A stretch of DNA of 64,000 nt from a virus, in the IMG/VR virus record IMGVR_UViG_3300049489_001336, positions 64,001 to 128,000 of that record; one strand, written 5' to 3'. A program made the translations under genes and the position numbers. The notes under the pieces were generated by a model. The model was not told the DNA's origin. It saw only the letters and a program-made list of their open reading frames with translations, and ran no database searches. The number at the start of each line of letters is the position of its first letter. The stretch's first letter is position 1. Of the stretch, positions 34,459-53,224 are shown piece after piece.

Positions 34459-34591
34459 GAAACAGCAAAATTAGAAGAGTTTATTTTATACTGGTTACCC
34501 AACGCCCCCATAGATTGGTGGAGGCAAGCGGATTCGAACCGCAACAGTCCTTTTGGTCAAAAAAGATGTAAACCCTTCAGGTATCTGTTTC
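34459..34591 (-). ncRNA. Y-RNA-like unit I with Ala-type acceptor stem
   Basis: Terminal helix GAAACAG/CUGUUUC; T loop UUCGAAU; UGCCUCC-A-CCA-AUCUAU-GGGGGCG. Confidence 0.78.
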
Positions 34592-34615
34592 AAAACTCAG
34601 TATGCCGAAACGTGT

Positions 34616-35212
34616 TCAGTCGTGCAAGGCGCCCGAGAACGCAGCCATGAAGTCCACTTCTTCGAGCTTCTTCACGTCCACGATATCATGCTTGGCGCCC
34701 TTGAGGTCGTCATCCAACGCCGTCAAGAAGTTCTGCAGGTCGGGCGCGATATTTCCCACCGTGAGGAAGGAAATCGCAAACTCGTGCTCATCCCGAATGT
34801 CATTGCTGATGTCGATGATGACCTTCTTCACAGCCGCACGGTCCGCAGGCTCGCCGTCGGTGGCGACGAACAGTAGCGTCTGCGCGTACTTGCCTTCCTT
34901 GTGCAGGCTGTAGGCGGCCTTGATAAGCGCGGCGGTGTCCGTCATGCCTTCATTGGCCTTGAGCCCGCCAATGACGTCGTGGGCCTTTTCTGCGGTCACA
35001 TTGCGATAGGGCGTGACCTTCGCGCCAAAGGTGAGGACGTCGATTCCATCTTCGTCCCACTTGCTGGCCTCCGTAGCGAACGTCTTGACCTGTTCCTTGA
35101 GGTACTCAATGCGTGAGGTACCGTTGGGACAATCCGTGGTCTGCATCGAAGCAGAAACGTCCACGCCAAAGATGAAGTTGTCACCGCGATTGAGTTCAAG
35201 CTGAGAAGACAT
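34616..35212 (-). CDS. vWA domain protein
   Basis: MIDAS DVSASM...T...VATDG; visibly GC3-rich codons; probable ATG at 35212. Confidence 0.85.
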   Translation of the reverse strand: MSSQLELNRGDNFIFGVDVSASMQTTDCPNGTSRIEYLKEQVKTFATEASKWDEDGIDVLTFGAKVTPYRNVTAEKAHDVIGGLKANEGMTDTAALIKAAYSLHKEGKYAQTLLFVATDGEPADRAAVKKVIIDISNDIRDEHEFAISFLTVGNIAPDLQNFLTALDDDLKGAKHDIVDVKKLEEVDFMAAFSGALHD

Positions 35213-35508
35213 GTTTCTTTTCTTTCTTTTTTCGGAAATCCACAAATAAATAAACAACAATTAAAGAAGAGACATCACCGAAAGTTTTGTCTCAAACAGC
35301 TTTGACTGTGTACTCGGGAGGTACAAAGAACGCAAGGACTTCTTTGTACACCAGCGAGTCATCGAGCTTATCATGCACATGGAGAAAATACCGAGAACCC
35401 CAACATAGAATTTCCACGCGAGGTTGAAACGGAGGAATTTTCACGTCCGTAACGAATTGACCATCTTTGGTGTAAAGATGCGCCACTTCGTAGAATTCGC
35501 CGTTGACT

Positions 35509-35937
35509 TTATCCACGGTCACTTCCAATTCCATAAGACATGACGGTGGATTTAAAGTGGTGTGACCACTCCCATTCGTCGAGGACGAATTGACAAAACT
35601 GCCGCTCAGTAACGGTAATTTCATCGGCCGTGCTCATTTCGAGCATACGGATAGTCTTGTTGTATTCTTTGACATGCGATACAGGCTCAACGCAGCTGAT
35701 TTGGCGAATCACCTCAGCTTTATTGACTGCCTTGTCCAGCATCAGCGTAAGCTCTTGAATAGCTGCCGCACGGTAGGCTTTGCAGGCCAACACGTATTCT
35801 TCTTGATGCTTATTTCGGTTAAGCCGAATCGCATCCAAAAGCGTTTCTTTATTGATCGTTACCTTGCCCGTGCCAAAGTCATTTAACATACTTTGCCCTG
35901 TATTTAGAGAGTTCCGCTTTAAGTTCGCGGTTCTCAC
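35509..35937 (-). CDS. hypothetical protein
   Basis: Coiled/helical ORF; start uncertain. Confidence 0.5.
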   Translation of the reverse strand: MRTANLKRNSLNTGQSMLNDFGTGKVTINKETLLDAIRLNRNKHQEEYVLACKAYRAAAIQELTLMLDKAVNKAEVIRQISCVEPVSHVKEYNKTIRMLEMSTADEITVTERQFCQFVLDEWEWSHHFKSTVMSYGIGSDRG

Positions 35938-36738
35938 GTGCTAAAGAAGAAATCTTTGCGTCGCGCGCAACGATCATTTTACGAAATTTGTCGTAGTCTG
36001 CACATATCGTGCAGTCGTCTTTCCAACGCTTGTGCTCGCAGGCGCTGGGCCCTGTGTAATTGCCGCAGTCGTCGGTCCAATTGGGCATAAATCCCCGTCT
36101 AATTTCTTATACCAAGAAAAGACGGGAAACCATCAATCGTTGATTGCCGTGCATTCTTTCGGAGAATGATGCTCCAGGCATTTATACATGAGCTCGTGTT
36201 TTTCACACGACTCAAAGCACGACGCAACAGCCCACGGCCCAAATAAAATCAACGCAAACCAAATGTAGTCGGGCATACTCCCTCAATCTGCCGGCGGTGC
36301 ACGTTGCGGTACACACTGTTCAATACACTCTTGATGCAGCCAATAATTTTGGCATGAATGAACGACGTTTAAAAGAAACAGCATCAACAAGACGAGGGCA
36401 AGTAAACCTTGATTCCCCACAAAGCCTCTTTGTAAAGACCCGCAGTATCTTTCCGCGCTGCGGGCGGCCACGGTCTACGAACACACACCTATTCGTAAAA
36501 TAGGCGAGGTTATTGCCTCTACGAAGTCGTGCGAATTCCAACCTACGTATAGGTATTTAAACTGGTTGGGGCGACCTTCCAGGAGCTATACGCGACTGCT
36601 CTGCTGCCACAGCACTGGCTTCATCCCACACCTGGCAGGGCGTGTTTATGGACTTATCCCAGTCTATAATCAAATTGCACGACTTCGTAGAAGCAACAAC
36701 CTGAGGAGAAGGGACTCTACAAGGAGAGCTTTCTTCTT

Positions 36739-37566
36739 TCAAGGAGTTTTTTCTATTCTGTCGAGATAACGCTGCGCAAGGGTGCTGCACACGGTTTTAC
36801 GTGTTGCTTCACCCAAGTAAAAACCGGCATTTGGGTACTGATAGTCGCGCCACGCCGTGTCCAACCAGCGCGAATAATACGGGTATACTTCTTGTAAATT
36901 TGTTTTGAACTTACCGCGTTGACGGTCAATGACGTCTTCCACTCGCCGCAAACTATTGCGCGCGGGCCCGCCGTTGATTCCATCAAGGTATTTCAAAAAG
37001 CTTTCAGCTTCGGTGAGAGGCTTTGGCTTTTCGTCGGACTTCAGGGTTTTTAGGCATTCGTTTGCAAGAATGTCCAACGTCAAATTCGCCACGGTAGCCC
37101 CGACTTTTTTCTCGGCAGCGTAGTAACTGTTATAGCGGCGCATCGCATAGCTTACAGTTACATGCAGGGCGTTTTTTACGCTGTCCAATGTTAATTGATC
37201 TCTCGGTTTCTGCGAGATCATCGCAAAAACTTCTACATACCTTGCAATGACCGCATTCACAGGGCCTTTGGTAATGAAATGCGCAAACGTCTCTGCACGA
37301 GTTTTCTGCGCTTCTGTAGGCTCTTTTACCCGTGATTTTTCCGCGTCGACTTGGGGAATGACGCTGCTTTGGTACGTAAGATTGAGCCTTATTTCTTTGA
37401 CGATAGGCTGCAGTTCCGAAGTCCACGTACGCCCATGCTCTGCGCAAGCCACGCCCTGCTCGTGCAGCTTTTTACGCTTCTCCTCGGCGCACTTGGGACA
37501 GCTGAAGCGATGGGGGAGCTGAAGGTTATGCGCTTGGCAGGTGTACTTGAAAACGTCGTAACCCAT
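36739..37566 (-). CDS. hypothetical protein with N-terminal Cys/His (zinc-ribbon-like) region
   Basis: C..H...CPKC...C.EH; SD AGGAG before ATG 37566. Confidence 0.6.
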   Translation of the reverse strand: MGYDVFKYTCQAHNLQLPHRFSCPKCAEEKRKKLHEQGVACAEHGRTWTSELQPIVKEIRLNLTYQSSVIPQVDAEKSRVKEPTEAQKTRAETFAHFITKGPVNAVIARYVEVFAMISQKPRDQLTLDSVKNALHVTVSYAMRRYNSYYAAEKKVGATVANLTLDILANECLKTLKSDEKPKPLTEAESFLKYLDGINGGPARNSLRRVEDVIDRQRGKFKTNLQEVYPYYSRWLDTAWRDYQYPNAGFYLGEATRKTVCSTLAQRYLDRIEKTP

Positions 37567-37983
37567 GGAAGATCTCCTATTTACGGGGTTTATTACGAGG
37601 CTTTTTGCGGTGCTCTTTCTTTTCGAGCATCGTGGCCAAATCAAAAAGCCGCGTCAGGTGGAGTTCCTTGGCGCGACTACGAATGAACGCAATGGTGTCT
37701 TCGAGTTCTTTTTCACGGCCTCGGGCGTAGGCCGTTTTATGTATTTTGAAAAAGGCCAACATCTCCGGATTGTCACGGAGATATTGTTCAAGTTCTTTTA
37801 CCTCGATCTCTTCGCTTTTGGTGCTCACGCCGCATTCTCCATAGTTTGTACTGGGCGAGTAGATGCCCTATCCAAAAACCCGCTAGGAGCAACACCACGA
37901 AAAGGTACTGACGCGTACCAAAGAAGAACCCGACGAGAAAAAGCAGCATAATTGCGATGGCTAGTTCTCTGTTTTTCGGGTCT

Positions 37984-38523
37984 TTAAACACGACGATCGC
38001 CCCAGAAGAAATAGTCGGTGTACAGCATAGCCACTGCGCGTCGCACATACGAGGTATCTTGGTACGCCATGACGGCTGCTTTGAGTTCTTCCGCAGCGGT
38101 TTTAATGACATCGACATAGCTGTGACTTGCTTCGGTCCACAGGGCATAAGCCCAGGCGGGGTCTGGTTCTCCTTCTCCAAGTTTTTGCAGCAAAGACTTT
38201 TCTACTGCTTGCTGTTCTCTAGCCGCTGCAGGCGAAGAGTTTTCAATCCAGTTAATCAAGGTAATAGCGTGGCCCGCATACTCTTGGTAGTCGATAATCA
38301 TGAGTTTATTGTACAAGTATTCCTGTAAATAATCGTAGGGTTCTACGGGTTGCTTGGGAAACAACGCGTGTTTTTCTGCGACGTAGAGACCGCGCTCCAA
38401 CAAAGACGTTACAGCTGTTTCTTGTTTACGTTCAGGGGGATCACAGTAATTGCATACGGCAGAGACAAACAACAACGTCATTTTTCGATAGCAGCCAGGG
38501 CAATAAAGTACGGGGTCAGTCAC
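37984..38523 (-). CDS. hypothetical protein, paralog of 38532..38987, with extra N-terminal CxxC...CxxC
   Basis: Shared C-terminus YTD(Y/H)FFWGDRR. Confidence 0.7.
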   Translation of the reverse strand: MTDPVLYCPGCYRKMTLLFVSAVCNYCDPPERKQETAVTSLLERGLYVAEKHALFPKQPVEPYDYLQEYLYNKLMIIDYQEYAGHAITLINWIENSSPAAAREQQAVEKSLLQKLGEGEPDPAWAYALWTEASHSYVDVIKTAAEELKAAVMAYQDTSYVRRAVAMLYTDYFFWGDRRV

Positions 38524-38531
38524 AAACCCTC

Positions 38532-38987
38532 CTAAAGGTCAAAACGACGATCGCCCCAAAAGAAATGGTCTGTGTATCCCATGGCTAACGCTTTTTGAGC
38601 CACTGCAGGAACAGACTCCGGTGGAAAAGGAGGGCTGTCTTCTTTTTCCATTTTACATAATTTGGTGTACACGTGATGTGTTATGCCCCAAATTTCGTAC
38701 GCAGCAGGTTCTCCAACCTTGGTTAACGTGACGAGATCTGAGATAAATATCTCAATCTCTTTTTGTTTTTCAGAAAGCTCCGCAGAGCTTTCAATTATAT
38801 CTATCAAAGTCAGCGCTGCCGCAAGGTGTTCACTAGGATCTGGAATACCCAGTACACCTTTGAAATAACGGTCCAGGTATTCGATAATACTCGCTGGTTT
38901 TTGTTTAAATGCGGCGTGGTTTTGCGCAATAAAATCACAAAACTCTTTGTCTTTAGGGCTTGTGAACTTATCAGGGACTAAAAGCAT
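38532..38987 (-). CDS. hypothetical protein, paralog of 37984..38523
   Basis: TLI..IE.S, GEP...Y..W and YTDHFFWGDRR shared with the neighbour. Confidence 0.7.
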   Translation of the reverse strand: MLLVPDKFTSPKDKEFCDFIAQNHAAFKQKPASIIEYLDRYFKGVLGIPDPSEHLAAALTLIDIIESSAELSEKQKEIEIFISDLVTLTKVGEPAAYEIWGITHHVYTKLCKMEKEDSPPFPPESVPAVAQKALAMGYTDHFFWGDRRFDL

Positions 38988-39832
38988 TACAAAACCCTCC
39001 TTAACAACGGTTTACGCCGATGCTCAACTATGATTTTTAATTCAGTCCTTGTCTAGGGGACATCTACCCGGAACACTTCATCGAACATTTCGAGGTCAAC
39101 GATGTTAAACACATCAGGTGTCTCATTGCGTATTTCCCGTACCTTTCGTAATAAACGAACACGTGCATTAGCAAATTTAATCGCACTACCCGTCGTGCCT
39201 TTTCCAGTATGCACGATTGGGTAAAGGGCGAAAGCCGCAGCCCACACAAGCTTTTCAGTGTCATTCATGTAGTCGCTTTGCCTTCTGCTTTGGCTGCTTC
39301 TTGCGCGTTGAGCGCGTCACAAATACGCTTCGCCCATTTTCTTGCAACAGGCTCCGTGTCAAATAAGTCTCCAGGGGTCATACACACGGTTTGGCCGCCT
39401 AAACAAACATGGTACGTCTTCATACCATCTTCGTCATCGACGATGTCCATGTAAAAAGGTTTGTTGTCAGCACTCATCGTCCATCTCACTCCGTAACACG
39501 GGGTAAACCGTCGTGAGCGCATCTTTCTCTGACACGAGTATTTTCACAATATCCATGTGCCCTTTGTGCGCTTCTGCGCGCGTAGCGTAGCGCTTCACGG
39601 TTTTATCCATGACGCCACCAAAGACCATGGTTTCGAACAACAAAGGTTTTTCTTGGTTGTTATACGCATGGTTAATGCCCAAAAAGACGGTCGAAACAGA
39701 AAGCCTAGCGTCGTCTGTTTCGGTGTACAGCAATTGCGTATTATGCGTTGTAATCCACTCGATGTATTGCATCAGCGTTACATTTTGAACGGTATCCCCG
39801 TCAAAAGTATAAAAGGGCGACATTGATTCCTC

Positions 39833-40165
39833 CATAGACTTTTACCAGAGATAGAGGCTAAAAAAGGCCGAAGCCATTTAGCAAAACAGCAAATGCCCTG
39901 TACTTGCTCCTGTACGTGGATTCCACTGAACTACCTGATAACGAATCTCTCGGCATGTCTTTAAGTGCACGTAAACTACTACGGGAAGCGGCTTAAAGCC
40001 TATTGTCTCTAATGTTGCCGTATCAGGCTGTTTATACTGCGATAGATTCACGCCATATTGCTCCAATAAAGAATTGACATCACGTATTAAGCGCTGTTCT
40101 GCGTCTTTACGCACGTACACCTCATAGACTTTTACCAGAGATAGAGGCTAAAAAAGGCCGAAGCC
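39833..40165 (-). repeat. identical 43-bp direct repeats (39833..39875, 40123..40165) flanking the 80-aa ORF 39878..40120
   Basis: CATAGACTTTTACCAGAGATAGAGGCTAAAAAAGGCCGAAGCC in both positions. Confidence 0.92.
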
Positions 40166-40168
40166 CTT

Positions 40169-40411
40169 TCAAACATGCACAAATACCTGCGTGCACATCT
40201 GCTCGTCTACGAAGGAATCCAAGGCAGAGACGTAGTGTATGTATTCAAGGCGAGATGCTTTGATAAGCACCCCTTCCTTTTCTGCGTTTAGGTTGTGGTA
40301 CTCAAAGTAAAAGGATTGCGCTTCAGCACAGCCTTTTTGACTCGGCGCTTCTGCTTCATCAATCACAAAGTTTGGATGCCGATCTCCTTCAAAAACAAAT
40401 ACAGCGAACAT
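40169..40411 (-). CDS. hypothetical protein, paralog of 41931..42170
   Basis: M(F/Y)A(V/I)F(V/I)F...APS...C..A.SFYFE....E..G.L..ASRL. Confidence 0.7.
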   Translation of the reverse strand: MFAVFVFEGDRHPNFVIDEAEAPSQKGCAEAQSFYFEYHNLNAEKEGVLIKASRLEYIHYVSALDSFVDEQMCTQVFVHV

Positions 40412-40506
40412 GGCATTTTCTCCTTGTTAAAATCCTATACCAGGGAAACAGGGAGATTTATGAAGGCTAAAAAAGGCCGAAGCCCCTTTATAGGCAATTA
40501 CGCACG

Positions 40507-41436
40507 TTACCCTTTGAGAGTCGTACATGCAATTTCCCAAACCTGGTCAGGGGTCAAGGAGGAGGACTTTCCTCCTTCGAGTCGAGGGCTACCTCCAATG
40601 GATGAGCCACCACCCCATCCGGGTTCCAGTGCCGCGAGAGCAGCCAGCAACGAGCCGGGCCTGCTAACGGGGCCAATGGCCAAGTTCACAAGGTCCGACC
40701 GCTTCGCCACGGTATATGTCCGGGTGCCATCAGCAGCATCCTGGAATAGGATGCCGCCGTCATAACCGTCCTCATACAAAGCGGAGAACCCAAAACCCTC
40801 GCATGTAGCGATGGCGAATTTGTGACCGTTGATAGTCACCGCGAGGCGGTAGTAGTCAAGCACTACAGGGGGTGTAGTACCGAGCGTCACGGTCCCCTCA
40901 ATCAGGGAGGTAATACCCTGAAAACATTGTTCAAGAAGTTCCGGCCATTGACCGAATACCTCACGAACCTTGCCACGGAGATCCGTGACAGGTTTGATGG
41001 CTGCCCTGAAAAACAGGGATGCCATCGAGTTCTCCTCCTTGGAAAGAAGAAGAGCGCCCGCGGGGCCATGCGCGTCAATCGCGCCCACTGCACGGACAAG
41101 GCTCCTCACACGGTCCTCGTTTGCCTTGTGGGCATTGTCCATGAGCCAAAGACTCATGACAGTATCTCCGTCTAGGTCATTGACGTACACAACACGGTCG
41201 TTAAGCCAGCCTGCGCCTCCAAGGCACAGAACGTTGCGCACCTGTTCGCAGGTGCTGAGGGTAACCAAACGAATGCAGTGGTCATGGTGGTCAAAGGACC
41301 AACGATCACCGGGGCCCTGTTGGGGACCTTGAACAAAGCCATCGAGCGAGACGCCTCGTTCCATAAGATCTGTGATACTGCCGTAATCGCCCGGAATGAG
41401 CTTAATGCTGTAGTTTTTACGTTGCATTGCAATCAT
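40507..41436 (-). CDS. putative DHH-like phosphoesterase
   Basis: FDHH, NDLDGD, and a C-terminal GWGGG reminiscent of DHHA1; motif order is atypical. Confidence 0.45.
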   Translation of the reverse strand: MIAMQRKNYSIKLIPGDYGSITDLMERGVSLDGFVQGPQQGPGDRWSFDHHDHCIRLVTLSTCEQVRNVLCLGGAGWLNDRVVYVNDLDGDTVMSLWLMDNAHKANEDRVRSLVRAVGAIDAHGPAGALLLSKEENSMASLFFRAAIKPVTDLRGKVREVFGQWPELLEQCFQGITSLIEGTVTLGTTPPVVLDYYRLAVTINGHKFAIATCEGFGFSALYEDGYDGGILFQDAADGTRTYTVAKRSDLVNLAIGPVSRPGSLLAALAALEPGWGGGSSIGGSPRLEGGKSSSLTPDQVWEIACTTLKG

Positions 41437-41530
41437 GGCATTTCTCCCTGTTAAAACCCTATACCAGAGAAGTAGAGAATTTTTTTTTTTTGAAGGCTAA
41501 AAAAGGCCGAAGCCAATTTAAGGATGCCCT

Positions 41531-41854
41531 TCAGTGTGCGAAAGCTCGCGGCGTAACATTCATTGGCCACTGCATTTCAATGGGACAATCCCCTTTCACG
41601 AGGGGAAGGACGATGCGCCAGTTGGCAGCTTCCACTGCCAGCGTCTCGTAGCGTTGATTGGTATTCTCAATGAGCCGGGTGCTGACTCGTTCTCCCGTAG
41701 GAGAGACCAACCAGGGCGTTTCCCCTGGTCGTATGTCTTCGATGACGTCGAGAACCACCTCAGCAATTAAGGTGTATGTGTCTTGTCCCCGTAAGGACAC
41801 GTCCACCTCAGGGGCATCAAGCACTACCAGCAAACCATAACTGTATACTTCCAT
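41531..41854 (-). CDS. hypothetical single-gene cassette
   Basis: Flanked by promoter repeats. Confidence 0.6.
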   Translation of the reverse strand: MEVYSYGLLVVLDAPEVDVSLRGQDTYTLIAEVVLDVIEDIRPGETPWLVSPTGERVSTRLIENTNQRYETLAVEAANWRIVLPLVKGDCPIEMQWPMNVTPRAFAH

Positions 41855-41930
41855 AAATCCTCCTAAAACCCTATACCAGGGAAAGCGTTGTATTTATGAA
41901 AGCTAAAAAGGCCGAAGCCTCGACACACAG

Positions 41931-44287: not shown

Positions 44288-46380
44288 GTTCCTACCAACA
44301 CGTTGAACAATCGTTGCTTTTTACCTTGTTGGGTTCGCACGATAAAGGAGTCCTTTTTGGTCGATGAAAACCCCAGGCCCGCGAGTTGATTGTCCGAGGG
44401 CTGGCATTTGGTTTTATCAGCGATAACTTCAAAAACTTTGCGATGCGGCTCTAGGCGCGAGTGCAGGAACTCGTTGTAAAAGCCGCGAATTTCTTCATCA
44501 CATTTAGCGCCCTCCAGCACAAAGAATGTGTGTTTGTTACCCACTGCGTTATCCCCCCAGTAATTGGGACTGAGCATCACAGCGTTGACTTTGACGTATT
44601 GTTCGGTCGTGAGTCCCCATTTCTCTTTCGAGAGATTGGACGACGTAATGGCAGGGTCTCCCACATCCACACGTTCAATACTGCCATTTTTGAGGTAGAG
44701 CGTAGCAACGGTCACGTCTTGACGTGTACGCACAATTTTGTTGTAGGAATAATGGGAAAGTTTACCGCCGCTTTCAGTCTCCACGACAAACCCAGGATTG
44801 CTGGTCTCACGCTGAGAGTAATTATTCACCACGATGCGATACGCGCCGTCGGGCGGGTTAGTCGCCCAAACAATGTTTTCCACAGGCTCTCGTGTGGTAC
44901 CACTGCCTGCGTTCATGTCGACGTCGAGCACACCCCCGGTCCAGCCGCGTTTGTTCCCGAAGTAAATATGTTGCAATGTGGTTTTGACTCCACGACCTGC
45001 AGGCTCATGGATGTGTAAATCCAGGTCGTCGAAGTTGAACCATGAAAGAGATACACGAAGGATGGCGCCGTCGACTTTGCCGCCTGCTTTCTTCACGCGC
45101 TCTTTGATGGAGTCCGCGACATTGCCTCCGTAAGACCATGCAAAGTCATTGGACCAACGAAAGAGTTGCTTGGGCTCGGGATGCGCCGGCGCCGTAATGG
45201 CCATGAGGTTACCCAAGTGCTCTCCTTTGACCAAAAGCTCAAGGCTTTGCGTCTCAGGCAGGACTTTGGACATGAAATCATCGATGCTGATAGACTCAGC
45301 ACGTTCTTCGTCTTTGGCTATGTCACGGGCGGCGTGGGCAGTGGCGTGGTGCATCAGCACGTCGCCAAGGCCGCCACGCATCAGCGGTTTCACGGAACCA
45401 TCGACCCACTTGACATCGTTCACAGAAACGTCGCCAATCACGGCAAAGCGGCGTTCCAGAGCCGCCTCAAGCCCAAGCTCTTCGATGGTTTCCATGGCCT
45501 TTTTGACCATGCCAGGCGTAATCAGCGCGGTCGTACGCTTGTAATTTTGGGGCGCGACTTTGGTTTCAAAACTCGCTACAGCTTGTTCTATATCTTTGCC
45601 TTCCGATAGGTCTTGGACGAGTGTTCCAATCACCGTGTTACGAAAACGCGCCGCAGGACTCTGCGCATTGGCCCAAGCAAAAATACTTTGGTCTTTCGGG
45701 CTACTCTTCAAGAACGTATTTTGTAGCTTTTGAAATTGCTGAAGAGCAGAGCGATGTTCTTGGCCTCGGTACAAACTACTGGCGTCCACCAACGAAAGCA
45801 CCGTGGACACTGCCTCAGGCGTTAATTCCCGAAGACCTCGTTCAAAGACCTGCACCGTCGTACGGTAATTACCACATACGGTGTCAGGCGACGCTACACG
45901 GAGCTTACGCGGAATTTCTTCGGTGTGAAGGTGTCCCCACGTCGTGACCTGTTGGGTTTCTTTGTCGAGAGACCTTGTTTGCACGGCGCCAAACCGTAGC
46001 TCATTGACCCCAACACGAAACAAATCACGAATGCCTACTGAGAGCACCGCGTTTTTCAAGGCTGTGGCGACGTCCGCGTAAAAGTCAGGTCCTTTCTTCG
46101 CGGCTTGGTCCCAGACCGTGTGAAGCTTACCTTTGTCAAAAGACACGACGTTGCCCGCACGACGAATAAACTGCCTGCACATGGAGCAGTCGTGCTCTGT
46201 CTTGGTCTTGAAAATGGGATTGGTGCCTTCAGGAAACGAGGCAAGATAAAGCGCATACAACGCGTCGCCCTCGATGTCGGCGACAAAGGCTTCTTCGGAA
46301 TTGACAATTTCACGGAAAGAAGCAGCGACCCACGTATGGAATTGTTTGCTTCTCTTTTCAGCGACGGCATATTGCGACAT
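44284..46380 (-). CDS. large phage protein with a C-terminal YfaP/DUF2135-like segment
   Basis: 698 aa; LSWFNFDDLDLH..EP...LDVDMNAG....PVENI.W. Confidence 0.6.
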   Translation of the reverse strand: MSQYAVAEKRSKQFHTWVAASFREIVNSEEAFVADIEGDALYALYLASFPEGTNPIFKTKTEHDCSMCRQFIRRAGNVVSFDKGKLHTVWDQAAKKGPDFYADVATALKNAVLSVGIRDLFRVGVNELRFGAVQTRSLDKETQQVTTWGHLHTEEIPRKLRVASPDTVCGNYRTTVQVFERGLRELTPEAVSTVLSLVDASSLYRGQEHRSALQQFQKLQNTFLKSSPKDQSIFAWANAQSPAARFRNTVIGTLVQDLSEGKDIEQAVASFETKVAPQNYKRTTALITPGMVKKAMETIEELGLEAALERRFAVIGDVSVNDVKWVDGSVKPLMRGGLGDVLMHHATAHAARDIAKDEERAESISIDDFMSKVLPETQSLELLVKGEHLGNLMAITAPAHPEPKQLFRWSNDFAWSYGGNVADSIKERVKKAGGKVDGAILRVSLSWFNFDDLDLHIHEPAGRGVKTTLQHIYFGNKRGWTGGVLDVDMNAGSGTTREPVENIVWATNPPDGAYRIVVNNYSQRETSNPGFVVETESGGKLSHYSYNKIVRTRQDVTVATLYLKNGSIERVDVGDPAITSSNLSKEKWGLTTEQYVKVNAVMLSPNYWGDNAVGNKHTFFVLEGAKCDEEIRGFYNEFLHSRLEPHRKVFEVIADKTKCQPSDNQLAGLGFSSTKKDSFIVRTQQGKKQRLFNVLVGT

Positions 46381-46405
46381 ACGAATCTCCTAGAACGCTT
46401 ATCCT

Positions 46406-47044: not shown

Positions 47045-47129
47045 AGTCTCTCCTTGTTAAATGAGGGCTATAGTCTTTTACCGTAGAGCAGCTAAAAAGA
47101 AGGATAAGCACTCTAAGTACGCGCCACGC

Positions 47130-48659
47130 TCAGAAATTCAAGTCGTACACGTTGTCATACTTTTCGCGCGGATACGTAGGGCTGAGGCGCTCCGCGATGG
47201 TCATCAAGATCTTTTCAAAGCTACGGTCATCGCAGCTCAATTTGCTGCACACCCATACGGTGTCATTGGTGTAGCGCTTGAAGGCAACGATCACCTGCGA
47301 GGCCTGGTAAATGCCATCGCCATCGTGGGCCACTGCGCCAAAGGCAAAGTAGTCCCGTCCGTGATGGTCTTTGCCGTAAATCAGCTTGTTGTTTTTCACG
47401 GCGGCGTACGGAATTTTGTCGATGTAATCGGTGGGACCGACCCATTCCTTGGGCGCGTCCATGTGAACCAAGATCTTGTTATGTTTGATGGCAAAGATGT
47501 TGAGAAGGTCGACGTTCATGTGAATTTCCCCTTGTTAAAACCCTATACCAGGGAAAGAGGGAGATTTATGAAGGCTAAAAAAGGGCTGTAGCCCAAACGA
47601 CTCAAGCGGAGGCCAAAGCCATATCAATGTGCCGATGCATCGCTCGCAAAAGTTCCATAGGCTGTTTGTGGTCCACGTTGAGAACTTCTTTATTCATGGC
47701 AAACAACGCCTCTTGGAACTTCTTGTCAAACAATGCTTTGTCCGAGGTAAGTGCCCGTTTGACCATGCGCTTCAGTCCTAGGTACTGCAGCGACAACAAG
47801 AGACAAGCAAACTCTTTAAGAGCTGGCGCGTTTTCTTTGACGGAATGAAGCGTTGCTTGAGTGATCATGGCAATTCTCCCTGTTAAAACCCTATACCAGG
47901 GAAAGAGGGAGATTTATGAAGGCTAAAAAAGACAAGAAAGCCACGGACCGTTCCGTGGTTAATGCAATTGCGCCTGCCGCAACGTGGTCACAGTTTCCAC
48001 CAAACGAAGCACGTTCGCAGCCAGATCGTCGACTTTCTTTTCGTTGTCTTCGAGAACCAGCATTAGTTGTTCCGGAGTCACGCCGACGAGGCCTTGACCC
48101 ATGCTCAGATTGATGACTTTGAGCTTAAACACGACTTGCAGGAGCTGCGTGCTGTAGCTTTTGACAGCGCCCAAATCTTTGTTTTGACAAGCACTGTCAA
48201 GGTGGGTCAACAGCACGTTGGCTTTGATGATTTCTGCGTCGAACAATTGAATGAGGCTCATGGGGTTTCTCCTTGTTAAAACCCTATACCAGGGAAACAA
48301 AGAGAATTATGAAGAGCTAAAAAAGGCCGTGGCCTCACAATATTCAAACGCTGGACCGTAACATGTCAAAGACATGTTCACGCGCGTTGGAATTGTTTCC
48401 GCGCAACGCTCGCAAATTCTCGTACCACACTCAAAGCGTTGCGCCTTATATGTGCCGCACGTTTATGGAACGCAATGACCAACATAGACGTGCAAAGCAT
48501 ACTTGCAAAGAACCACCCTGCGAAGATCTCGTAAGGCCTATTGAGTTCTAACGCAGCTTGGATCTGCGCATCCGTCATAGGTGACGGCGGGGCTTCCACG
48601 TTCACAAATAAGCTGGCGATACTGAGAACAACCGAGAAGGCTGAGGCGTGCTTTTTCAT
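47130..48659 (-). other. four single-gene cassettes (47130..47519, 47602..47868, 47959..48261, 48378..48659)
   Basis: Each starts immediately after a promoter-RBS repeat; the last has two hydrophobic segments. Confidence 0.65.
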
Positions 48660-48739
48660 GGTAATTTCTCCTTGTTAAAACCCTATACCAGAGAAACAGG
48701 GAGATTTATAAAGCGTTAACCAAAGGCTATAATCCAGCT

Positions 48740-49171
48740 ATGTCACATTATGAATTAGGTAAACAGACAGCTTTGGTTAAACTGGGGTTTGTTAAAGCGG
48801 CAGGGTTACAGCCGTCTACGCGAGTCATGCTTTCAGAGATCGCGCATGGAGCTGTTCCAGGTCTTGCGGCAGGGGCAGGTACGTACGCCGCTACAGACGA
48901 CCCGATGCTTGCTGCAGGAGCGGGACTGGGCGTGGGTTCGCTTGGGTATGGCACAAAGCTTATGCTCAATCATCCAAGGAAAAGGGATTTGGACTTTGTA
49001 AGTCGCATGCATAGGAACACACGGCAAGGCTTAGACGATATCAATGGCAAAATTAGAGCAGGCGCTGACCCTGCTATGTATGACGGCGTAAAAAAGATTA
49101 AGGAAACGCAGCTTAAACGGGACAAGGAAGAGATGGATAGACTACAAAGTAAATTACAAGGACTTCTTTAA
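48740..49171 (+). CDS. Gly-zipper membrane protein with shared N-terminal motif, paralog of 5779..6432
   Basis: HYELGKQTALVKLGFVKAA; EIAHG.VPG..AG.G.Y...GLG.G.LG(F/Y)G.K..LN..R....DF shared. Confidence 0.75.
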   Translation: MSHYELGKQTALVKLGFVKAAGLQPSTRVMLSEIAHGAVPGLAAGAGTYAATDDPMLAAGAGLGVGSLGYGTKLMLNHPRKRDLDFVSRMHRNTRQGLDDINGKIRAGADPAMYDGVKKIKETQLKRDKEEMDRLQSKLQGLL

Positions 49172-49196
49172 GAATAAAATGATGTAAACGTTGGGG

Positions 49197-50051
49197 TTAC
49201 TCTTTACCATCAACGGTATCAAGTAATGCAGTAGCTCCGTACGTTCCAAGGGCTACTGCAGGTAACTTCATTGCAGTGCCTGCGTAGGTGCCAAAGGCAG
49301 GTAACAACGTCTTAATACCTTTTACCATATCTCTGCGTGTGGCTCCGTTGCGGTACATATTCAATAAACCATGCCCACTGGCATAAGCTTCTTCCGCAAG
49401 TACGGGCACCGTCGGTAGCACAGAGCTGGCTAAATAAGCGTTGCGTTTCGTTTTACTTTCCTCGCCAGGATTCGATTTTTCAGCGTCATACGCGTATAAA
49501 CCTGGAATAAGCCCCAACCACGGTTTACTGAACGTGCTATACCCTAAATTGCCCAACATATGCATTATTTTAGGGGTTTTTTCAAAGTAATGTTTATGCC
49601 CTAACTCATGCGCCAAAGTAGCTGGATTTTTCTGGAATGACGCCTCGCCTAACGTAATCACGTTTTTCTTTGAACTAAAGGATCCCCGGTATGGGGACGT
49701 TCCAGGTTTCCCCCGTTCAACGTTATGTCCTTGAACGAGCTTTTCATAAATCTCTTTTTCTCTAGCCAAATCGTCTAAGTGCGCCTGGCTAGGCTTCTTT
49801 GCATTGGGCGTTAAATGTGCTGTATCTGCATAATAAGATTTATTCAATTCATCCACGATAGCGTTATTACTATGCGTCCCGACCGCGTCACCTAAGAGGT
49901 AACCTGAGTAACCTCCCCCTGCTAGTAGACCCGCATTGAGAATTCTCTGGTCTTCATCACTTAATTCTTTAGCTACCGGCGCAGTAGATGAGCCTGTACG
50001 CATACCCAGTTTGGTAAGAGCAAAATGACGGCCTGCAATATAAGAATTCAT
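49197..50051 (-). CDS. zincin metallopeptidase with shared N-terminal motif
   Basis: SYIAGRHFALTKLGM; AHELGH and downstream EEAYAS (gluzincin-like third ligand); hydrophobic segments. Confidence 0.72.
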   Translation of the reverse strand: MNSYIAGRHFALTKLGMRTGSSTAPVAKELSDEDQRILNAGLLAGGGYSGYLLGDAVGTHSNNAIVDELNKSYYADTAHLTPNAKKPSQAHLDDLAREKEIYEKLVQGHNVERGKPGTSPYRGSFSSKKNVITLGEASFQKNPATLAHELGHKHYFEKTPKIMHMLGNLGYSTFSKPWLGLIPGLYAYDAEKSNPGEESKTKRNAYLASSVLPTVPVLAEEAYASGHGLLNMYRNGATRRDMVKGIKTLLPAFGTYAGTAMKLPAVALGTYGATALLDTVDGKE

Positions 50052-50387
50052 AAGGGTATTATACGCGGTTGCTAACAGCTAAAAAAGAACAACCTTAGAG
50101 CTCTTCGATGCTCAGCCCGGTGTCCTTTAAAATCAAATTAACCCGCTTAACCACAAAGTCTTGCTCTTCAGGACTCAGCGCTGCCCATACAGAGTCTACA
50201 CCGTCTCGTAGCAGAGGATCTACCTGGTCACATGCAGGGCAATACACAAAGCCCCAAATGTGAAATCCAAGGCGACACCATAACCTACGCCACCACCCGT
50301 CTAAGCGTCTAGGCGGCGCTGCGTTACACATGTGAATGATATCGAAGTATTGATGGTGGCGTGGGCCTGGGTATTTGTGAGGCATAA

Positions 50388-50636
50388 TTACTTGGGGTCT
50401 GTGTCTTTATTCTTGAATAAGTGCACGTACGCAGAATGGCAAAGAAATACGAACACCGCGGTGACAATCAGTGCGCCTAACGCGCTTGCGACAATGCCAA
50501 ACAACCAAAAGAAAATACGCAACGCAAACAGCGCGATTAACGCCGCTAGCCCGTAGCTGAGAATCACGGCGACATCACGGGGAATCCACGAAGGGTATTT
50601 GTTGAGAATGTGTGCGGGGATTTCAGGGAGTTTCAT
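50388..50636 (-). CDS. small membrane protein
   Basis: Two long hydrophobic helices. Confidence 0.55.
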   Translation of the reverse strand: MKLPEIPAHILNKYPSWIPRDVAVILSYGLAALIALFALRIFFWLFGIVASALGALIVTAVFVFLCHSAYVHLFKNKDTDPK

Positions 50637-51082
50637 TGAGGGCCTTTGAGCAGGTTAGGTTGAAGCAGACTATGGAGCATCTTTGTAGCTTTTCCTTCTT
50701 CCAATAGCCAGCGGTCTACCTCTCGAACATTGTCGACGTTTACGTTATGCCCCCGCGAACACTGCAACTTGGGCACATGACCAAAGGCTTGGCAAATCCT
50801 GGGTCGAACTTCGTAAATGGCACATACGCCTCGTTGATAAAAAGGACAAGTTAACCCTTGGTCCTTAGGAACAATGTTGTGCTGCGCAATATATTGCTGG
50901 ATTCTCTTGAGCTGTTTATCAGAGACAAACACAGGTCCACAACAATCGCCGCAGAACTTTTCACAGGTCATGCTAGGGAACGTGGGGAGTTTTAGTTTGG
51001 CCAAAGGACCTCCAACGTAAGAGATCTTGCTTACTGCATTGGCTTTTAAGCCGTGTTGGCTCGTTGCGCCGCCGTGGACCAC
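50633..51082 (-). CDS. YkgJ-like Cys-cluster protein
   Basis: CEKFCGDCC...CPFY..G.CAIYEVRP.IC..F. Confidence 0.85.
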   Translation of the reverse strand: MVHGGATSQHGLKANAVSKISYVGGPLAKLKLPTFPSMTCEKFCGDCCGPVFVSDKQLKRIQQYIAQHNIVPKDQGLTCPFYQRGVCAIYEVRPRICQAFGHVPKLQCSRGHNVNVDNVREVDRWLLEEGKATKMLHSLLQPNLLKGPQ

Positions 51083-51274
51083 TCAAGAGCTCAACTTTGA
51101 AATAGCGTACTAAAAAGCAATAACGACTATCTAAAAACGCGTAACAACCAATGCGCCATTCTCCGCATGTCAACGACCTCCAACATTTGTTTAGACATGC
51201 GCCTGTAGGTCTAGAGTACGAATATTCAGGCAAACGCTCAAATTCATCGAGCCATACACGCATGACATTGGCCA

Positions 51275-51387
51275 TAGCGTTCGTGCAAGGACTCGAACCT
51301 TGCTCCCGTTAAAGAATGGAACTGGGGGGAACTCCCTCTAACGGTGTCCAGGTGGCAGGGCATTTACCACAAACAAACAACGAACTA
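51275..51387 (-). ncRNA. tRNA-like structured element, copy 1
   Basis: Acceptor-like GUUCGU/ACGAAC, T arm CAAGG-UUCGAGU-CCUUG, long CCGUUAGAG/CUUUAACGG stem in place of the anticodon arm. Confidence 0.55.
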
Positions 51388-51714
51388 TTATTTGGGCTTG
51401 CCCAAGTTAAAATATTTGCGAATTTCTTCGCCACGTTCTGTGCAACGATACGAGTAGGGTAAATACGGGTGCTTTTCGAGTAAACCCTTAGTAACCAAGA
51501 CCTTGGCGCGCTTACTCTCGGAAGCAGTCAAAGTCTTCGGCGCATCGTACGCGCACAAACTAAGGATATTAAAATCATAAAACGTAAGCCGAAGGGTATT
51601 GCGTACAAAAGGCCAAATCAACTTGGCTGCAGCTTGTATTCCTTCATGGCTTGCAACATCGATAATATCACAGACCAATTCGAGCTCATCGTCGGTGACT
51701 TCCATAACACCTCA

Positions 51715-51811
51715 GTATTCGTGCAAGGACTCGAACCTTGCTCTCTATATAAACAGTGTATCCCTCAGTTTATACAGATGTCCAGGCGGCCGAGGAGAAC
51801 AGCCACGAATA
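51715..51811 (-). ncRNA. tRNA-like structured element, copy 2
   Basis: UAUUCGUG/CACGAAUA, identical T arm, shared CCUGGACA, 10-bp CUGUAUAAAC/GUUUAUAUAG stem. Confidence 0.55.
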
Positions 51812-52209
51812 TAAAAACAAAGAGCGATAGATCGAGATTGCAACCGATGCCTGAGCTACTAACTAAGCCACTGTCTCTTTCAGGCACTGCCAAGAACAGT
51901 AAGCACGAGATGCGACAGCTCAAGCAAGACGTGTTGCGATGTATCGACTCGCGCCGATTCAGTAGAAAGTGCTCTTTGTTCCACCATGCACAGGGTTCGG
52001 AGCGATGTGCACAGTGATAAAAGGTTCGGGTGAAAAGCGGGAAGATTCTCAGATTTTTAGATGGATTACAGAGCTGAACATGCGACTTCAATGAGTAGAG
52101 GCACTGCCATTTCATTGACTTAGTTGTCGACGAGTTGTTGGCTCTGTACAAAGGTTGTTGCCCATGACGGGCGACTTGCTTTTCACCCTAGGAAAACCTC
52201 AACGATAAA

Positions 52210-52716
52210 CTACTCGAAGAGGTCTTCCGTAAGCGTTTTGATTTCGTGCTCCTCCGCATTGCCTTGAGCAATGGCAGCACGCATGGCACTCGCACGCTTG
52301 GCCGCACTCGTGGCATTTTTCAATGCATCACTTGCGCTGACCTGCGTCTGTGCGTAGATTTTGTTCGGGTCCCGCTCGTCTGCAGAATAGCCGTAGCGCT
52401 CTTTCTTGCTGCCTGTGGCTGAGCGCCACATCTTTTCTGCGCGGGCGAGGCCCCCAAGCGCCTTCACGGCAAAGCCCAAGGTGATCAATTCACCGTCAAA
52501 AGGCACTTTGACCTGAAGGTTGTACATCGCCTGTGCTTCTTGCAGCTTGGCAATGGCATACTCTGCCGCCAAATACTGCTTGACTGCATCGACGGGATGT
52601 TCCTTGGTTTCCCCAGGATAAATCTTCAACGAATCATCGAACACTCGGGAAGCCGCGTCTTTACGCAGCTCCCATTGTTTGATGGCTTCACGGATTTTGT
52701 AGCCAGTGACTTTCAC
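52210..52716 (-). CDS. helical hypothetical protein directly downstream of the large Y-like array
   Basis: 168-aa Ala-rich ORF. Confidence 0.7.
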   Translation of the reverse strand: MKVTGYKIREAIKQWELRKDAASRVFDDSLKIYPGETKEHPVDAVKQYLAAEYAIAKLQEAQAMYNLQVKVPFDGELITLGFAVKALGGLARAEKMWRSATGSKKERYGYSADERDPNKIYAQTQVSASDALKNATSAAKRASAMRAAIAQGNAEEHEIKTLTEDLFE

Positions 52717-52769
52717 AAAGCCTCACTAGATAGTAGATGAGAGATACTTATTTACTTTTACCGTACAAC

Positions 52770-52852
52770 AGCTAAAAAAATCGAATATCTGCACGGTCTT
52801 CCATGGGATTTCCCAGCATTACTGCTGAGTCACACCCCGTGCAGATATTCGA
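52770..52852 (-). terminator. long-stem hairpin (16 bp) with branched loop, followed by UUUUUUUAGC
   Basis: TCGAATATCTGCACGG (52781-52796) and CCGTGCAGATATTCGA (52837-52852). Confidence 0.7.
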
Positions 52853-52861
52853 AAAACAAGC

Positions 52862-52938
52862 GTGGAAGCAAACTTGCGATGTTCCGTTTTCGGATCCCTT
52901 TTGGGGAGCGTAGATGTAGACATCACGACATCTTCCAC
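52862..52938 (-). ncRNA. Y-RNA-like unit A (short, no tRNA domain)
   Basis: Terminal helix GUGGAAG/CUUCCAC with the shared AUG...GUCUACAU and UUUG core. Confidence 0.7.
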
Positions 52939-52948
52939 AAACTTAAAC

Positions 52949-53079
52949 GGCCAGCAAAGATTTGAGAAGTCTATTTTACGCGTGCTGCCATTACACCACC
53001 AACAGTGTTACCTGCTGGACAGGATTCGAACCTGCTCCTCGTCCGCCCAATGGATGTAAACCTCTCGGGGCATCTGGCC
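52949..53079 (-). ncRNA. Y-RNA-like unit B (permuted tRNA domain)
   Basis: GGCCAG/CUGGCC; T arm GCAGG-UUCGAAU-CCUGU; CCAGCAG/CUGUUGG; D arm GUGU-AAUGGCA-GCAC. Confidence 0.83.
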
Positions 53080-53090
53080 AAAACTTAAAC

Positions 53091-53224
53091 GGTCAGCAAA
53101 GATTGAAGAGTCTATTTACGCGCTCTACCACTGAGCTACCCCGGCATAGATGGCGCCAGGGGCAAGGATTTGAACCTTGCATCCTCGTCCTTAGCATGGA
53201 TGTAAACCCTTCGGGCATCTGACC
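53091..53224 (-). ncRNA. Y-RNA-like unit C (permuted tRNA domain)
   Basis: GGUCAG/CUGACC; GAAGGGUUUA/UAGACUCUUC; T arm; CCCUGGC-G-CCA-UCUAU-GCCGGGG; D arm UAGCUCAGUGGUAGAGC. Confidence 0.87.

What the first reader, a model, noticed from the sequence alone, without database searches (positions are those of the whole stretch)
34459..53224. Three permuted units keep N-CCA in the closing loop; unit I carries alanine identity elements
Seen: unit C CCCUGGC-G-CCA, unit H CCAGCCU-G-CCA, unit I UGCCUCC-A-CCA, each followed by a spacer and the 5' acceptor strand. Unit I has G1-C72, G2-C71, G3.U70 and A73. Known: G3.U70 with A73 specifies AlaRS charging, and two-piece permuted tmRNAs mature by cutting such a loop. 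Inference: loop cleavage would yield two-piece, aminoacylatable tRNA mimics without anticodons that could bind EF-Tu or act as decoys. Unit I has no tag reading frame, so it is not a tmRNA.
Basis: partly seen in the sequence, partly recalled or inferred. Interest (0 to 1): 0.7.

Follow-up and report, generated by a model that had tools for sequence, protein, structure and literature searches.

The report
Phage Y RNAs with built-in CCA
Three of this phage's nine Y RNA-like genes (likely partners of its Ro60 protein) carry, in the loop sealing their tRNA-like arm, the CCA end and leader signal of real tRNA genes, so they are probably cut into two-piece tRNA mimics; one also bears alanine-charging marks.

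Summary
On the minus strand, units C (53225-53090), I (34591-34459) and H (34366-34218) each have a T arm, a 7-bp acceptor-like helix, then N73-CCA, a spacer and the 5' acceptor strand. Unit I has G1-C72, G2-C71, G3.U70 and A73.

The units are not orphan mimics. They are three of nine YrlA/YrlB-type Y RNA-like genes of a 190-kb phage that also encodes a Ro60/Rsr protein (21070-22836, minus strand).

In 37 related units from this phage, Myxococcus phage Mx1 and metagenomic or viral contigs, CCA sits at positions 74-76 in 12 of 29 loops of 5 nt or more. It occurs at most once at any other loop offset. Most of these loops end in AU before +1. True tRNA genes in a subset of the same arrays use the same signals. 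The remaining units are mostly sealed by tetraloops.

The best reading is host RNase P cleavage plus 3' trimming, giving two-piece Y RNAs. This was shown experimentally for Mycobacterium smegmatis YrlA but is not shown here. Alanine charging of unit I is possible: one metagenomic relative keeps G3.U70 and another does not.

This is a new variant of a known kind. This scan has already noted phage Y-like tRNA mimics, some with CCA, on other DNA.

The parts
53090..53225 (-). Unit C (my Yd), a Y RNA-like RNA with a permuted tRNA-like domain. T loop 53174-53168; 3' acceptor strand 53161-53155; G73-CCA 53154-53151; spacer 53150-53146; 5' acceptor strand 53145-53139. Pieces if cut and trimmed: 75 nt and 56 nt.
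   Evidence: Rfam YrlA 42.7 bits over the full model. R2 scores 133.5 bits, but this unit is one of R2's six seed sequences, so that score is circular. MFE fold; coordinates.
34459..34591 (-). Unit I (my Yg), a Y RNA-like RNA with a reduced D arm. T loop 34538-34532; 3' acceptor strand 34526-34520; A73-CCA 34519-34516; spacer 34515-34510; 5' acceptor strand 34509-34503, with G3.U70 and G7.U66. Pieces if cut and trimmed: 76 nt and 51 nt.
   Evidence: Rfam YrlA does not detect it. R1, built from unit C alone, scores it at 54.7 bits. R2 gives 103.9 bits, but unit I is one of R2's seed sequences.
34218..34366 (-). Unit H (my Yh), a Y RNA-like RNA. T loop 34322-34316; 3' acceptor strand 34310-34304; G73-CCA 34303-34300; 23-nt spacer 34299-34277, which holds a 12-nt direct repeat; 5' acceptor strand 34276-34270. 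Pieces if cut and trimmed: 67 nt and 59 nt. The unit starts at the base after the CCA of tRNA-Tyr.
   Evidence: Best Rfam YrlA match in the genome, 58.2 bits.
34367..34453 (-). tRNA-Tyr(GTA) with encoded CCA, lying between units I and H. Unit I ends 5 nt before its +1.
   Evidence: ARAGORN and Rfam.
34181..34209 (-). Intrinsic terminator (12-bp stem followed by T10) closing the stretch unit I, tRNA-Tyr, unit H.
52948..53080 (-). Unit Ye, a tRNA-like Y RNA with a 7-bp acceptor helix closed by a 6-nt loop without CCA.
53235..53375 (-). Unit Yc, a tRNA-like Y RNA with a 7-bp acceptor helix closed by a 7-nt loop without CCA.
33547..33654 (-). Unit Yi, a tRNA-like Y RNA with a 7-bp acceptor helix. 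Its loop starts U-CCU and ends AU.
53387..53470 (-). Unit Yb, a short Y RNA-like RNA with the stem carrying the Ro60-binding motif but no tRNA-like domain (YrlB-like).
53481..53545 (-). Unit Ya, a short Y RNA-like RNA (YrlB-like).
52861..52939 (-). Unit Yf, a short Y RNA-like RNA (YrlB-like) and the last member of the six-unit tandem array.
21070..22836 (-). Phage Ro60/Rsr ortholog (588 aa, TROVE plus Ro60 vWA domains), the presumed protein partner of the units.
   Evidence: Pfam; full-length match to D. radiodurans Rsr, PDB 2nvo; NCBIfam Rsr across the whole profile but below its cut-off.

Best explanation
Units C, H and I are three of nine Y RNA-like genes of a 190-kb phage. Six are YrlA-type and three are short, YrlB-like.

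Anatomy. In each unit the 5' and 3' ends pair into a two-part stem that carries the conserved Ro60-binding 5'-strand motif. In six units the other end is a circularly permuted tRNA-like domain: T arm, 7-bp acceptor-like helix closed by a loop, and D arm. There is no anticodon loop. The units are transcribed together with phage tRNAs and probably bind the phage's own Ro60/Rsr protein.

Proposed mechanism for C, H and I. The closing loop copies a tRNA-to-tRNA junction: a purine at 73, then CCA, a spacer, and (in C and I) AU just before +1. Host RNase P would therefore cut 5' of +1, and host 3' exonucleases would trim the spacer back to the encoded CCA. The two pieces would stay together through the acceptor helix and the long terminal stem. 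The result is a Ro60-bound tRNA mimic with a free CCA end, as reported for M. smegmatis YrlA.

Unit I also has the AlaRS acceptor set, so it could be alanylated.

Shown here: the sequence features, the covarying structure, the family-wide positional enrichment of CCA, and the presence of Ro60. Inferred: transcription, Ro60 binding, cleavage, trimming and charging.
For: - Family assignment. Rfam YrlA matches four units across the full model at 25.8-58.2 bits.
- Structure in this phage. Each unit folds on its own into terminal stem, internal loop, second stem and a multi-arm tRNA-like junction. Over the six paralogs 97.3% of cells pair and 23 of 33 pairs show changes on both sides, including all 7 acceptor pairs; 0 of 500 shuffles reach this, and slid controls give 40-47%.
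- Structure in the wider family. Over 76 matches, 92.9% of cells pair and 31 of 32 pairs covary.
- Protein partner. The phage encodes Ro60/Rsr. Four of five large phage records with such arrays also encode a TROVE protein, three of them above Pfam's cut-off.
- CCA position. CCA lies at 74-76 in 12 of 29 loops of 5 nt or more, against at most 1 at any other offset. N73 is A in 10 and G in 2. AU precedes +1 in 9 of 12, or 10 after a register correction.
- Same signals on real tRNA genes. In the eight loci checked, 74 of 82 tRNA genes encode CCA and 55 of 82 have AU at -2/-1.
- Retention across divergence. In one related group (L116:4070, L228:1727, L170:1819, L330) the stems differ and the loops span 7 to 43 nt, yet ACCA is kept in all four and the terminal AU in at least three; L170:1819 depends on the register chosen.
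- Operon context. tRNA-Tyr abuts units I and H, and a terminator follows H.
- Precedent. M. smegmatis YrlA, with a 7-bp stem, is cut by RNase P in vivo and in vitro and ends in CCA. Salmonella YrlA, with a 6-bp stem, is not cut (PMC4201824; 10.1101/312249).
Against: - Cleavage and trimming are therefore inferences.
- All Rfam YrlA scores fall below the gathering score of 69 bits.
- The units lie 10.7 to 31 kb from the Ro60 gene, not within the 4 kb used as a criterion by Chen et al.
- Many family members are sealed by tetraloops, and others carry NCCA-like but degenerate loop starts. The open form is therefore not required for the family, and CCA can be lost.
- Ye is this phage's closest match, by D-arm sequence, to the group that keeps ACCA elsewhere, and Ye has lost the CCA.
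- Unit C has a 13-bp rather than 12-bp stack. Unit H has C rather than U at -1. In units C and I, N73 could pair with -1.
- The nearest cultured relative, Mx1, has two units without CCA.
Confidence: 0.6

Rival explanations
1. Closed-loop Y RNAs. The units stay uncut, as Salmonella YrlA does. Under this reading the NCCA plus spacer is only a relic of how the permuted module arose: from the junction of two tandem copies of one tRNA gene, or by recombination with such a junction inside a tRNA array.
For: - Salmonella YrlA and D. radiodurans Yrn1 are not cut.
- About half of the family is sealed by tetraloops.
- Degenerate starts such as A-UUA, A-CUU and U-CCU in other loops look like decayed NCCA.
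- Tandem identical tRNA genes do give such junctions, for example L177:9497, which is two tRNA-Ala genes.
- Ye has lost the CCA that its closest relatives keep.
Against: - CCA is kept at one exact position while every acceptor pair covaries and loop length runs from 7 to 89 nt.
- A purine at 73 and AU at -2/-1 are kept together with the CCA.
- A loop that copies a real RNase P site on a 7+5 bp stack is hard to shield from RNase P. M. smegmatis YrlA with such a stem is cut.
Confidence: 0.25
2. Charged tRNA mimic. After cleavage, host AlaRS alanylates unit I. The charged RNA then acts through EF-Tu or the ribosome, or as a decoy for enzymes that attack tRNA acceptor ends.
For: - Unit I has G1-C72, G2-C71, G3.U70, G4-C69 and A73-CCA.
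- AlaRS needs no anticodon and charges acceptor minihelices that carry G3.U70 (established knowledge; not re-read here).
- L049:55-236 has the same architecture: reduced D arm, U49/U65 mismatch and a variable hairpin. It keeps G3.U70, G7.U66 and A73-CCA while pairs 4-69 and 6-67 changed on both sides and the loop grew to 61 nt.
- Chen et al. raised aminoacylation as a possibility for M. smegmatis YrlA.
Against: - Only 2 of 12 NCCA units have G3.U70.
- L170:4092-4238, whose 5' acceptor strand differs from L049's at one base, has G3-C70.
- G.U pairs occur at several acceptor positions in the family, so one G3.U70 among three NCCA units could be chance.
- Unit I lacks a normal D loop and elbow.
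- The phage has no AlaRS gene, and no tmRNA-like features were found.
Confidence: 0.12
3. True permuted tRNA genes (as in Cyanidioschyzon merolae) or a two-piece tmRNA. The ends would be cut and ligated to give a decoding tRNA, or the RNA would carry a tag reading frame.
For: - The gene order, 3' half then CCA then spacer then 5' half, is the same as in permuted tRNA and permuted ssrA genes.
- Wang et al. note this resemblance for YrlA.
Against: - There is no anticodon loop. The position of the anticodon stem is a 10-bp helix that runs on into the conserved Ro-motif internal loop and a terminal stem, and both helices covary.
- The phage has no RtcB.
- ARAGORN, which also models permuted tmRNA, and Rfam find no tmRNA.
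Confidence: 0.02

Closest known systems
Mycobacterium smegmatis YrlA (Chen et al. 2014, PMC4201824)
   Same: - A Ro60-bound Y RNA with a permuted tRNA-like domain and a 7-bp acceptor stem.
- Found in cells as two halves, cut at the RNase P site.
- The 5' half ends in CCA.
- Processed from a precursor that also holds a shorter YrlB.
   Different: - There only one C is encoded and CA is added after cleavage. Here the whole N73-CCA is encoded, together with a spacer of 5 to 23 nt; relatives have spacers up to 85 nt.
- It is bacterial and lies next to rsr. These units are phage genes, sit in arrays among tRNA genes, and lie 10.7 to 31 kb from the Ro60 gene.
- No alanine identity set was reported for it.
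Salmonella Typhimurium YrlA (Rfam RF02553; structure described in Wang et al. 2018, 10.1101/312249)
   Same: - The same modular plan: a stem with the GNCGAA-type Ro motif plus T arm, acceptor-like stem-loop and D arm.
- A tRNA-like L shape.
   Different: - It has a 6-bp acceptor stem, a closed loop and no CCA, and it is not cut by RNase P.
- The phage units score only 26-58 bits against this family's model, below the gathering score of 69.
Phage Y RNA-like RNAs with phage Ro60 (mycobacteriophages in Chen et al. 2014; Thermus phage phiLo Yrl1/Yrl2, PMC12135203; Bas63 gp130, PMC11482910)
   Same: - A phage-encoded Ro60 together with Y RNA-like genes in or near tRNA clusters.
- Reported roles: recruitment of host PNPase (phiLo) and countering the ppl defence system (Bas63 gp130).
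   Different: - The phage units I sampled are sealed without CCA: Alice and Mareelih and Mx1.
- None of the papers I read mentions encoded CCA, an excisable loop or alanine marks.
Two-piece tmRNA from permuted ssrA genes
   Same: - Permuted order, with the CCA-ended acceptor piece upstream, then an intervening segment that is removed.
- G3.U70 with A73 and no anticodon; this applies to unit I only.
   Different: - The units have no tag reading frame, no pseudoknots, and no ARAGORN or Rfam tmRNA match.
- The body of the RNA is a stem with the Ro60-binding motif.

Membership tests
YrlA-type Y RNA (Rfam RF02553; Chen et al. 2014) | The 5' and 3' ends pair into a long stem that carries the 5'-strand motif GNCGAAN0-1G, the proposed Ro60 contact. 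| tested here: met
   Unit H has the motif exactly. Units C, I and Yi carry close variants with one extra pyrimidine or with U in place of C. The terminal stem and the second stem covary: 5 of 6 and 5 of 10 pairs change on both sides.
YrlA-type Y RNA (Rfam RF02553; Chen et al. 2014) | A permuted tRNA-like domain in the order T arm, acceptor-like stem-loop, D arm. | tested here: met
   Present in six units. All 7 acceptor pairs, 3 of 6 T-stem pairs and 3 of 4 D-stem pairs show compensatory changes. In the family of 76 matches, 31 of 32 pairs covary. Unit I has a reduced D arm.
YrlA-type Y RNA (Rfam RF02553; Chen et al. 2014) | A score at or above Rfam's gathering threshold of 69 bits. | tested here: not met
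   The best match is 58.2 bits (unit H); unit C scores 42.7 and unit I is not detected. The candidate YrlA hits in phages Alice and Mareelih also score below threshold, at 37 and 52 bits.
YrlA-type Y RNA (Rfam RF02553; Chen et al. 2014) | Encoded within about 4 kb of a Ro60/Rsr gene on the same strand. | tested here: not met
   A Ro60 gene is present on the same strand (21070-22836), but the units lie 10.7 to 31 kb away, inside tRNA-type clusters.
YrlA-type Y RNA (Rfam RF02553; Chen et al. 2014) | Bound by Ro60/Rsr and modified by TruB and DusA. | not testable with these tools
   This needs immunoprecipitation and modification mapping.
Two-piece (permuted) tmRNA | A tag reading frame with a resume codon, pseudoknots, and an alanine acceptor stem. 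| tested here: not met
   ARAGORN finds no tmRNA in the window or the genome, and Rfam finds no tmRNA match. Only the alanine acceptor set is present, and only in unit I.
Permuted tRNA genes (Cyanidioschyzon merolae type) | An anticodon stem-loop that is restored when the precursor ends are cut and ligated. | tested here: not met
   No anticodon loop exists. The helix continues into the Ro-motif internal loop and the terminal stem. The phage has no RtcB.
Substrate of AlaRS (alanine identity) | G3.U70 in a 7-bp acceptor helix, with A73 and a free CCA end. G1-C72, G2-C71 and G4-C69 contribute. | tested here: inconclusive
   The sequence elements are all present in unit I and are kept in L049:55-236. 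They are not kept in L170:4092-4238. A free CCA end and actual charging were not testable.

The most novel reading that the evidence does not exclude
A subset of phage Y RNAs is built to be opened by the host's tRNA-processing enzymes into two-piece, CCA-ended tRNA mimics that ride on phage Ro60. One lineage, comprising unit I here and L049:55-236, is then alanylated by host AlaRS. That would give an anticodon-less charged tRNA mimic, like the tRNA-like domain of tmRNA. It might act on EF-Tu or the ribosome, or as a decoy for host defence enzymes that attack tRNA acceptor ends.
Probability: 0.12. Interest if true: 0.85.

Novelty: new variant of a known kind. Interest (0 to 1): 0.55.

Why it matters
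Y RNAs with Ro60 are conserved from bacteria to humans, yet the job of the bacterial tRNA-like module is still open. Only one species, M. smegmatis, has been shown to cut that module open.

The data here show that many large phages encode Y RNA-like units whose sealing loop carries the full set of tRNA end-processing signals. Sister units sit beside them, sealed by tetraloops. This suggests two deliberate forms, open and closed, and gives exact cut sites and product sizes to test.

If the open form is made, and above all if one lineage is charged with alanine, phage Ro60 particles would display a tRNA acceptor end. That would link Ro60 biology to translation factors or to anti-tRNA defence systems. 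One published report already has a phage Ro60-like protein countering a defence system (PMC11482910).

Tried and rejected
- Self-cleaving ribozyme, group I intron halves or CRISPR-like repeats as the conserved flanks. I dropped these once Rfam and folding showed that the flanks of one unit pair with each other.
- Sequencing-run search for RNA ends.
- Close relatives by Ro60 protein in IMG/VR: none found. A first DNA pattern gave only five matches, and none scored as a Y unit with model R2.
- A pattern aimed at unit I-type T arm plus ACCA in viral contigs. None of the matches was a permuted unit I-type module; two of the fetched loci (L144, L156) hold unrelated Y units.
- A pattern for the C55 T-loop variant plus ACCA. 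It returned 57 matches with normal tRNA gene order and 55 ambiguous ones, so that T loop is not specific to Y units. Only four permuted hits came out, one of them already known.
- The hit at 17778-17864 and the motif at 28217 lie in coding-like sequence and are not units.
- L177:9497-9603, which has a perfect tRNA-Ala acceptor helix, is two tandem tRNA-Ala genes and not a Y RNA.
- Supplementary tables of Chen et al. and two Wolin-lab reviews are not held. I therefore could not count CCA in published YrlA sets.
- No phage RtcB or AlaRS gene was found. The only match to the CCA-adding enzyme family was weak, E 0.17 and below cut-off.

Full report
**What is there.** The window is bases 64001-128000 of a 189,879-bp virus record. 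Reading that strand shows a repeated plan:
- a 5' strand with a conserved motif;
- an optional small hairpin;
- a T arm with a canonical T loop;
- a 7-nt 3' acceptor strand, a loop, and the complementary 7-nt 5' acceptor strand;
- a D arm;
- a 3' strand that pairs back to the 5' strand of the same unit.

I found nine such units, all in the window:
- Six carry the tRNA-like domain: Yc 53375-53235; unit C 53225-53090; Ye 53080-52948; unit I 34591-34459; unit H 34366-34218; Yi 33654-33547.
- Three are short and lack the tRNA-like domain: Ya, Yb and Yf.

Unit H lies just outside the stated span.

**What kind of RNA it is.** A permissive Rfam scan matches four units to YrlA (Y RNA-like A) across the whole model, at 25.8-58.2 bits. 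All are below the gathering score of 69.

Each unit folds on its own into a terminal stem, an internal loop, a second stem and a tRNA-like junction. Over the six paralogs, aligned to a covariance model, 97.3% of cells pair and 23 of 33 pairs change on both sides, including all seven acceptor pairs. No shuffle of 500 reaches this, and slid controls give 40-47%.

The phage encodes a full-length Ro60/Rsr ortholog at 21070-22836 on the same strand. It has TROVE and Ro60 vWA domains and matches D. radiodurans Rsr in the PDB.

The published description of YrlA fits: a stem carrying a GNCGAA-type motif, plus T arm, acceptor-like stem-loop and D arm, that is, a circularly permuted tRNA without an anticodon loop (PMC4201824; 10.1101/312249).

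tRNA-Tyr sits between units I and H. Unit H starts at the base after its CCA, unit I ends 5 nt before its +1, and a strong terminator follows H. The units therefore look like parts of tRNA-type transcription units.

**Is the CCA more than chance?** I built covariance models from the units (R1 and R2). I used them on DNA fetched with short patterns from metagenome and viral collections, and on Myxococcus phage Mx1. Mx1 is the nearest GenBank relative, with 44.6% Ro60 identity.

Arrays of the same RNA occur in many contigs, several from phage records of 130-530 kb. They are interleaved with tRNA genes. Four of five such records encode a TROVE protein, three of them above Pfam's cut-off. Structure support across 76 matches is strong: 92.9% of cells pair and 31 of 32 pairs covary. 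This alignment is fitted to the model, but slid controls stay near 40%.

Among 37 units with an acceptor helix:
- 29 have loops of 5 nt or more.
- In 12 of these, CCA occupies positions 74-76. It occurs at most once at any other loop offset, and CCA makes up 1.25% of trinucleotides in the units.
- N73 is A in ten and G in two.
- The loop ends in AU before +1 in nine, or ten after correcting one register.
- Most remaining units are sealed by four-base loops.

True tRNA genes use the same signals. In the eight loci checked, which include five of the seven other contigs holding NCCA units, 74 of 82 tRNA genes encode CCA and 55 of 82 have AU at -2/-1.

In one related group (L116:4070, L228:1727, L170:1819, L330) the stems differ and the loops span 7 to 43 nt. 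ACCA is kept in all four and the terminal AU in at least three, since L170:1819 depends on the register chosen. In this phage, Ye is the closest match to that group by D-arm sequence, and it has lost the CCA. The feature is therefore gained, kept and lost; it is not universal.

**Mechanism.** The closing loops of units C, H and I are copies of a tRNA 3' end followed by a tRNA 5' leader, sitting on a 7-bp acceptor helix. That helix stacks on a 5-bp T stem in H and I and on a 6-bp T stem in C.

The closest experimental case is M. smegmatis YrlA. Its 7-bp stem is cut at the RNase P site in vivo and by M1 RNA in vitro, and its 5' half ends in CCA. Salmonella YrlA has a 6-bp stem and is not cut.

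I therefore read units C, H and I as Y RNAs that host RNase P and 3' exonucleases open into two pieces. The predicted sizes are 75+56 nt, 67+59 nt and 76+51 nt. The pieces would stay paired and bound to Ro60. The phage has no RtcB and no AlaRS, and the only match to the CCA-adding enzyme family is weak and below cut-off. Host enzymes would therefore do this work.

**Alanine identity.** Unit I has the complete acceptor set for AlaRS. L049:55-236 shares its unusual features: a reduced D arm, a U49/U65 mismatch and a U/A-rich variable hairpin. It keeps G3.U70, G7.U66 and A73-CCA, while two other pairs changed on both sides and the loop grew to 61 nt. That is suggestive.

Against it, L170:4092-4238 has a 5' acceptor strand that differs from L049's at one base, yet it has G3-C70. 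Only 2 of 12 NCCA units have G3.U70, and G.U pairs occur at other acceptor positions too. One apparent third case was two tandem tRNA-Ala genes. I put charging at roughly one in eight.

**Rivals.**
- The main rival is that the RNAs stay closed and the CCA is a relic of an origin from a junction of tandem tRNA genes. Degenerate CCA-like loop starts in other units fit this. The exact positional retention, together with R73 and AU(-1), speaks against pure drift.
- A true permuted tRNA or a two-piece tmRNA is excluded by the lack of an anticodon loop, tag frame and pseudoknots.

**Known or new.** Phage Ro60 with Y RNA-like genes is published for mycobacteriophages, phiLo and Bas63. Cleavage of one bacterial YrlA is published too. 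In the papers I could search and read, I found no description of three things:
- a genome-encoded R73-CCA with an excisable spacer in Y RNAs;
- its recurrence across large phages, next to tetraloop-sealed sister units;
- an alanine acceptor set.

Two reviews and the supplements of Chen et al. were not available.

This scan has already noted phage Y-like permuted tRNA mimics on other DNA, some with a built-in CCA. The same reader filed the nine-unit Ro60 system of this phage separately.

Noticed in passing
window 3450-3738 (-): A tRNA-Leu(UAA) gene split by a group I intron (Rfam Intron_gpI at 3531-3713, 56.5 bits). It starts one base after the CCA of tRNA-Val and has its own encoded A-CCA. ARAGORN does not call it. 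Its 5' acceptor strand is identical to that of unit I, but the 3' strands differ.
   Followed up: partly
window 51285-51303 and 51723-51741 (-): Two copies of a roughly 26-nt element containing a T-arm-like hairpin. Each lies 6-9 nt upstream of the ATG of a small ORF on the minus strand. They are not part of any Y unit or tRNA.
   Followed up: no
window 19779-20354 (-): A DEDD (RNase T family) exonuclease gene lies about 700 bp downstream of the Ro60 gene on the same strand, separated from it by one small ORF (Pfam PF00929, E 7e-6). A 3' exonuclease close to Ro60 could be relevant to trimming of the Y RNAs or to Ro60's known work with exonucleases.
   Followed up: no
window 34616-35260 (-): A 214-aa vWA-domain protein is encoded directly upstream of unit I. 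Phage Mx1 also has a vWA-domain gene inside its tRNA and Ro60 region.
   Followed up: no
window 34277-34299 (-): The 23-nt spacer in unit H's loop consists of a 12-nt direct repeat in tandem, as if the spacer had been duplicated.
   Followed up: no
L007:8258-8383 and L007:8610-8713 (Myxococcus phage Mx1, OR576727.2 45169-45294 and 45521-45624): Mx1 has two unannotated Y RNA-like units inside its tRNA cluster. The second is overlapped by an annotated 'hypothetical protein' CDS (45524-45646), which is probably spurious.
   Followed up: partly
L078, L170, L177, L180, L181 and others (alignment A7): Many related units have G or C in place of U at T-loop position 55. Units with G55 tend to have a D loop that lacks the usual GG, which hints at a covarying elbow contact. 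The C55 T loop also occurs in sequences with normal tRNA gene order in viral contigs.
   Followed up: no
L013:3600-3760 (Mycobacterium phage Alice): The candidate YrlA upstream of the Ro-like gene overlaps two annotated small 'hypothetical protein' CDSs (gp218 and gp219).
   Followed up: no
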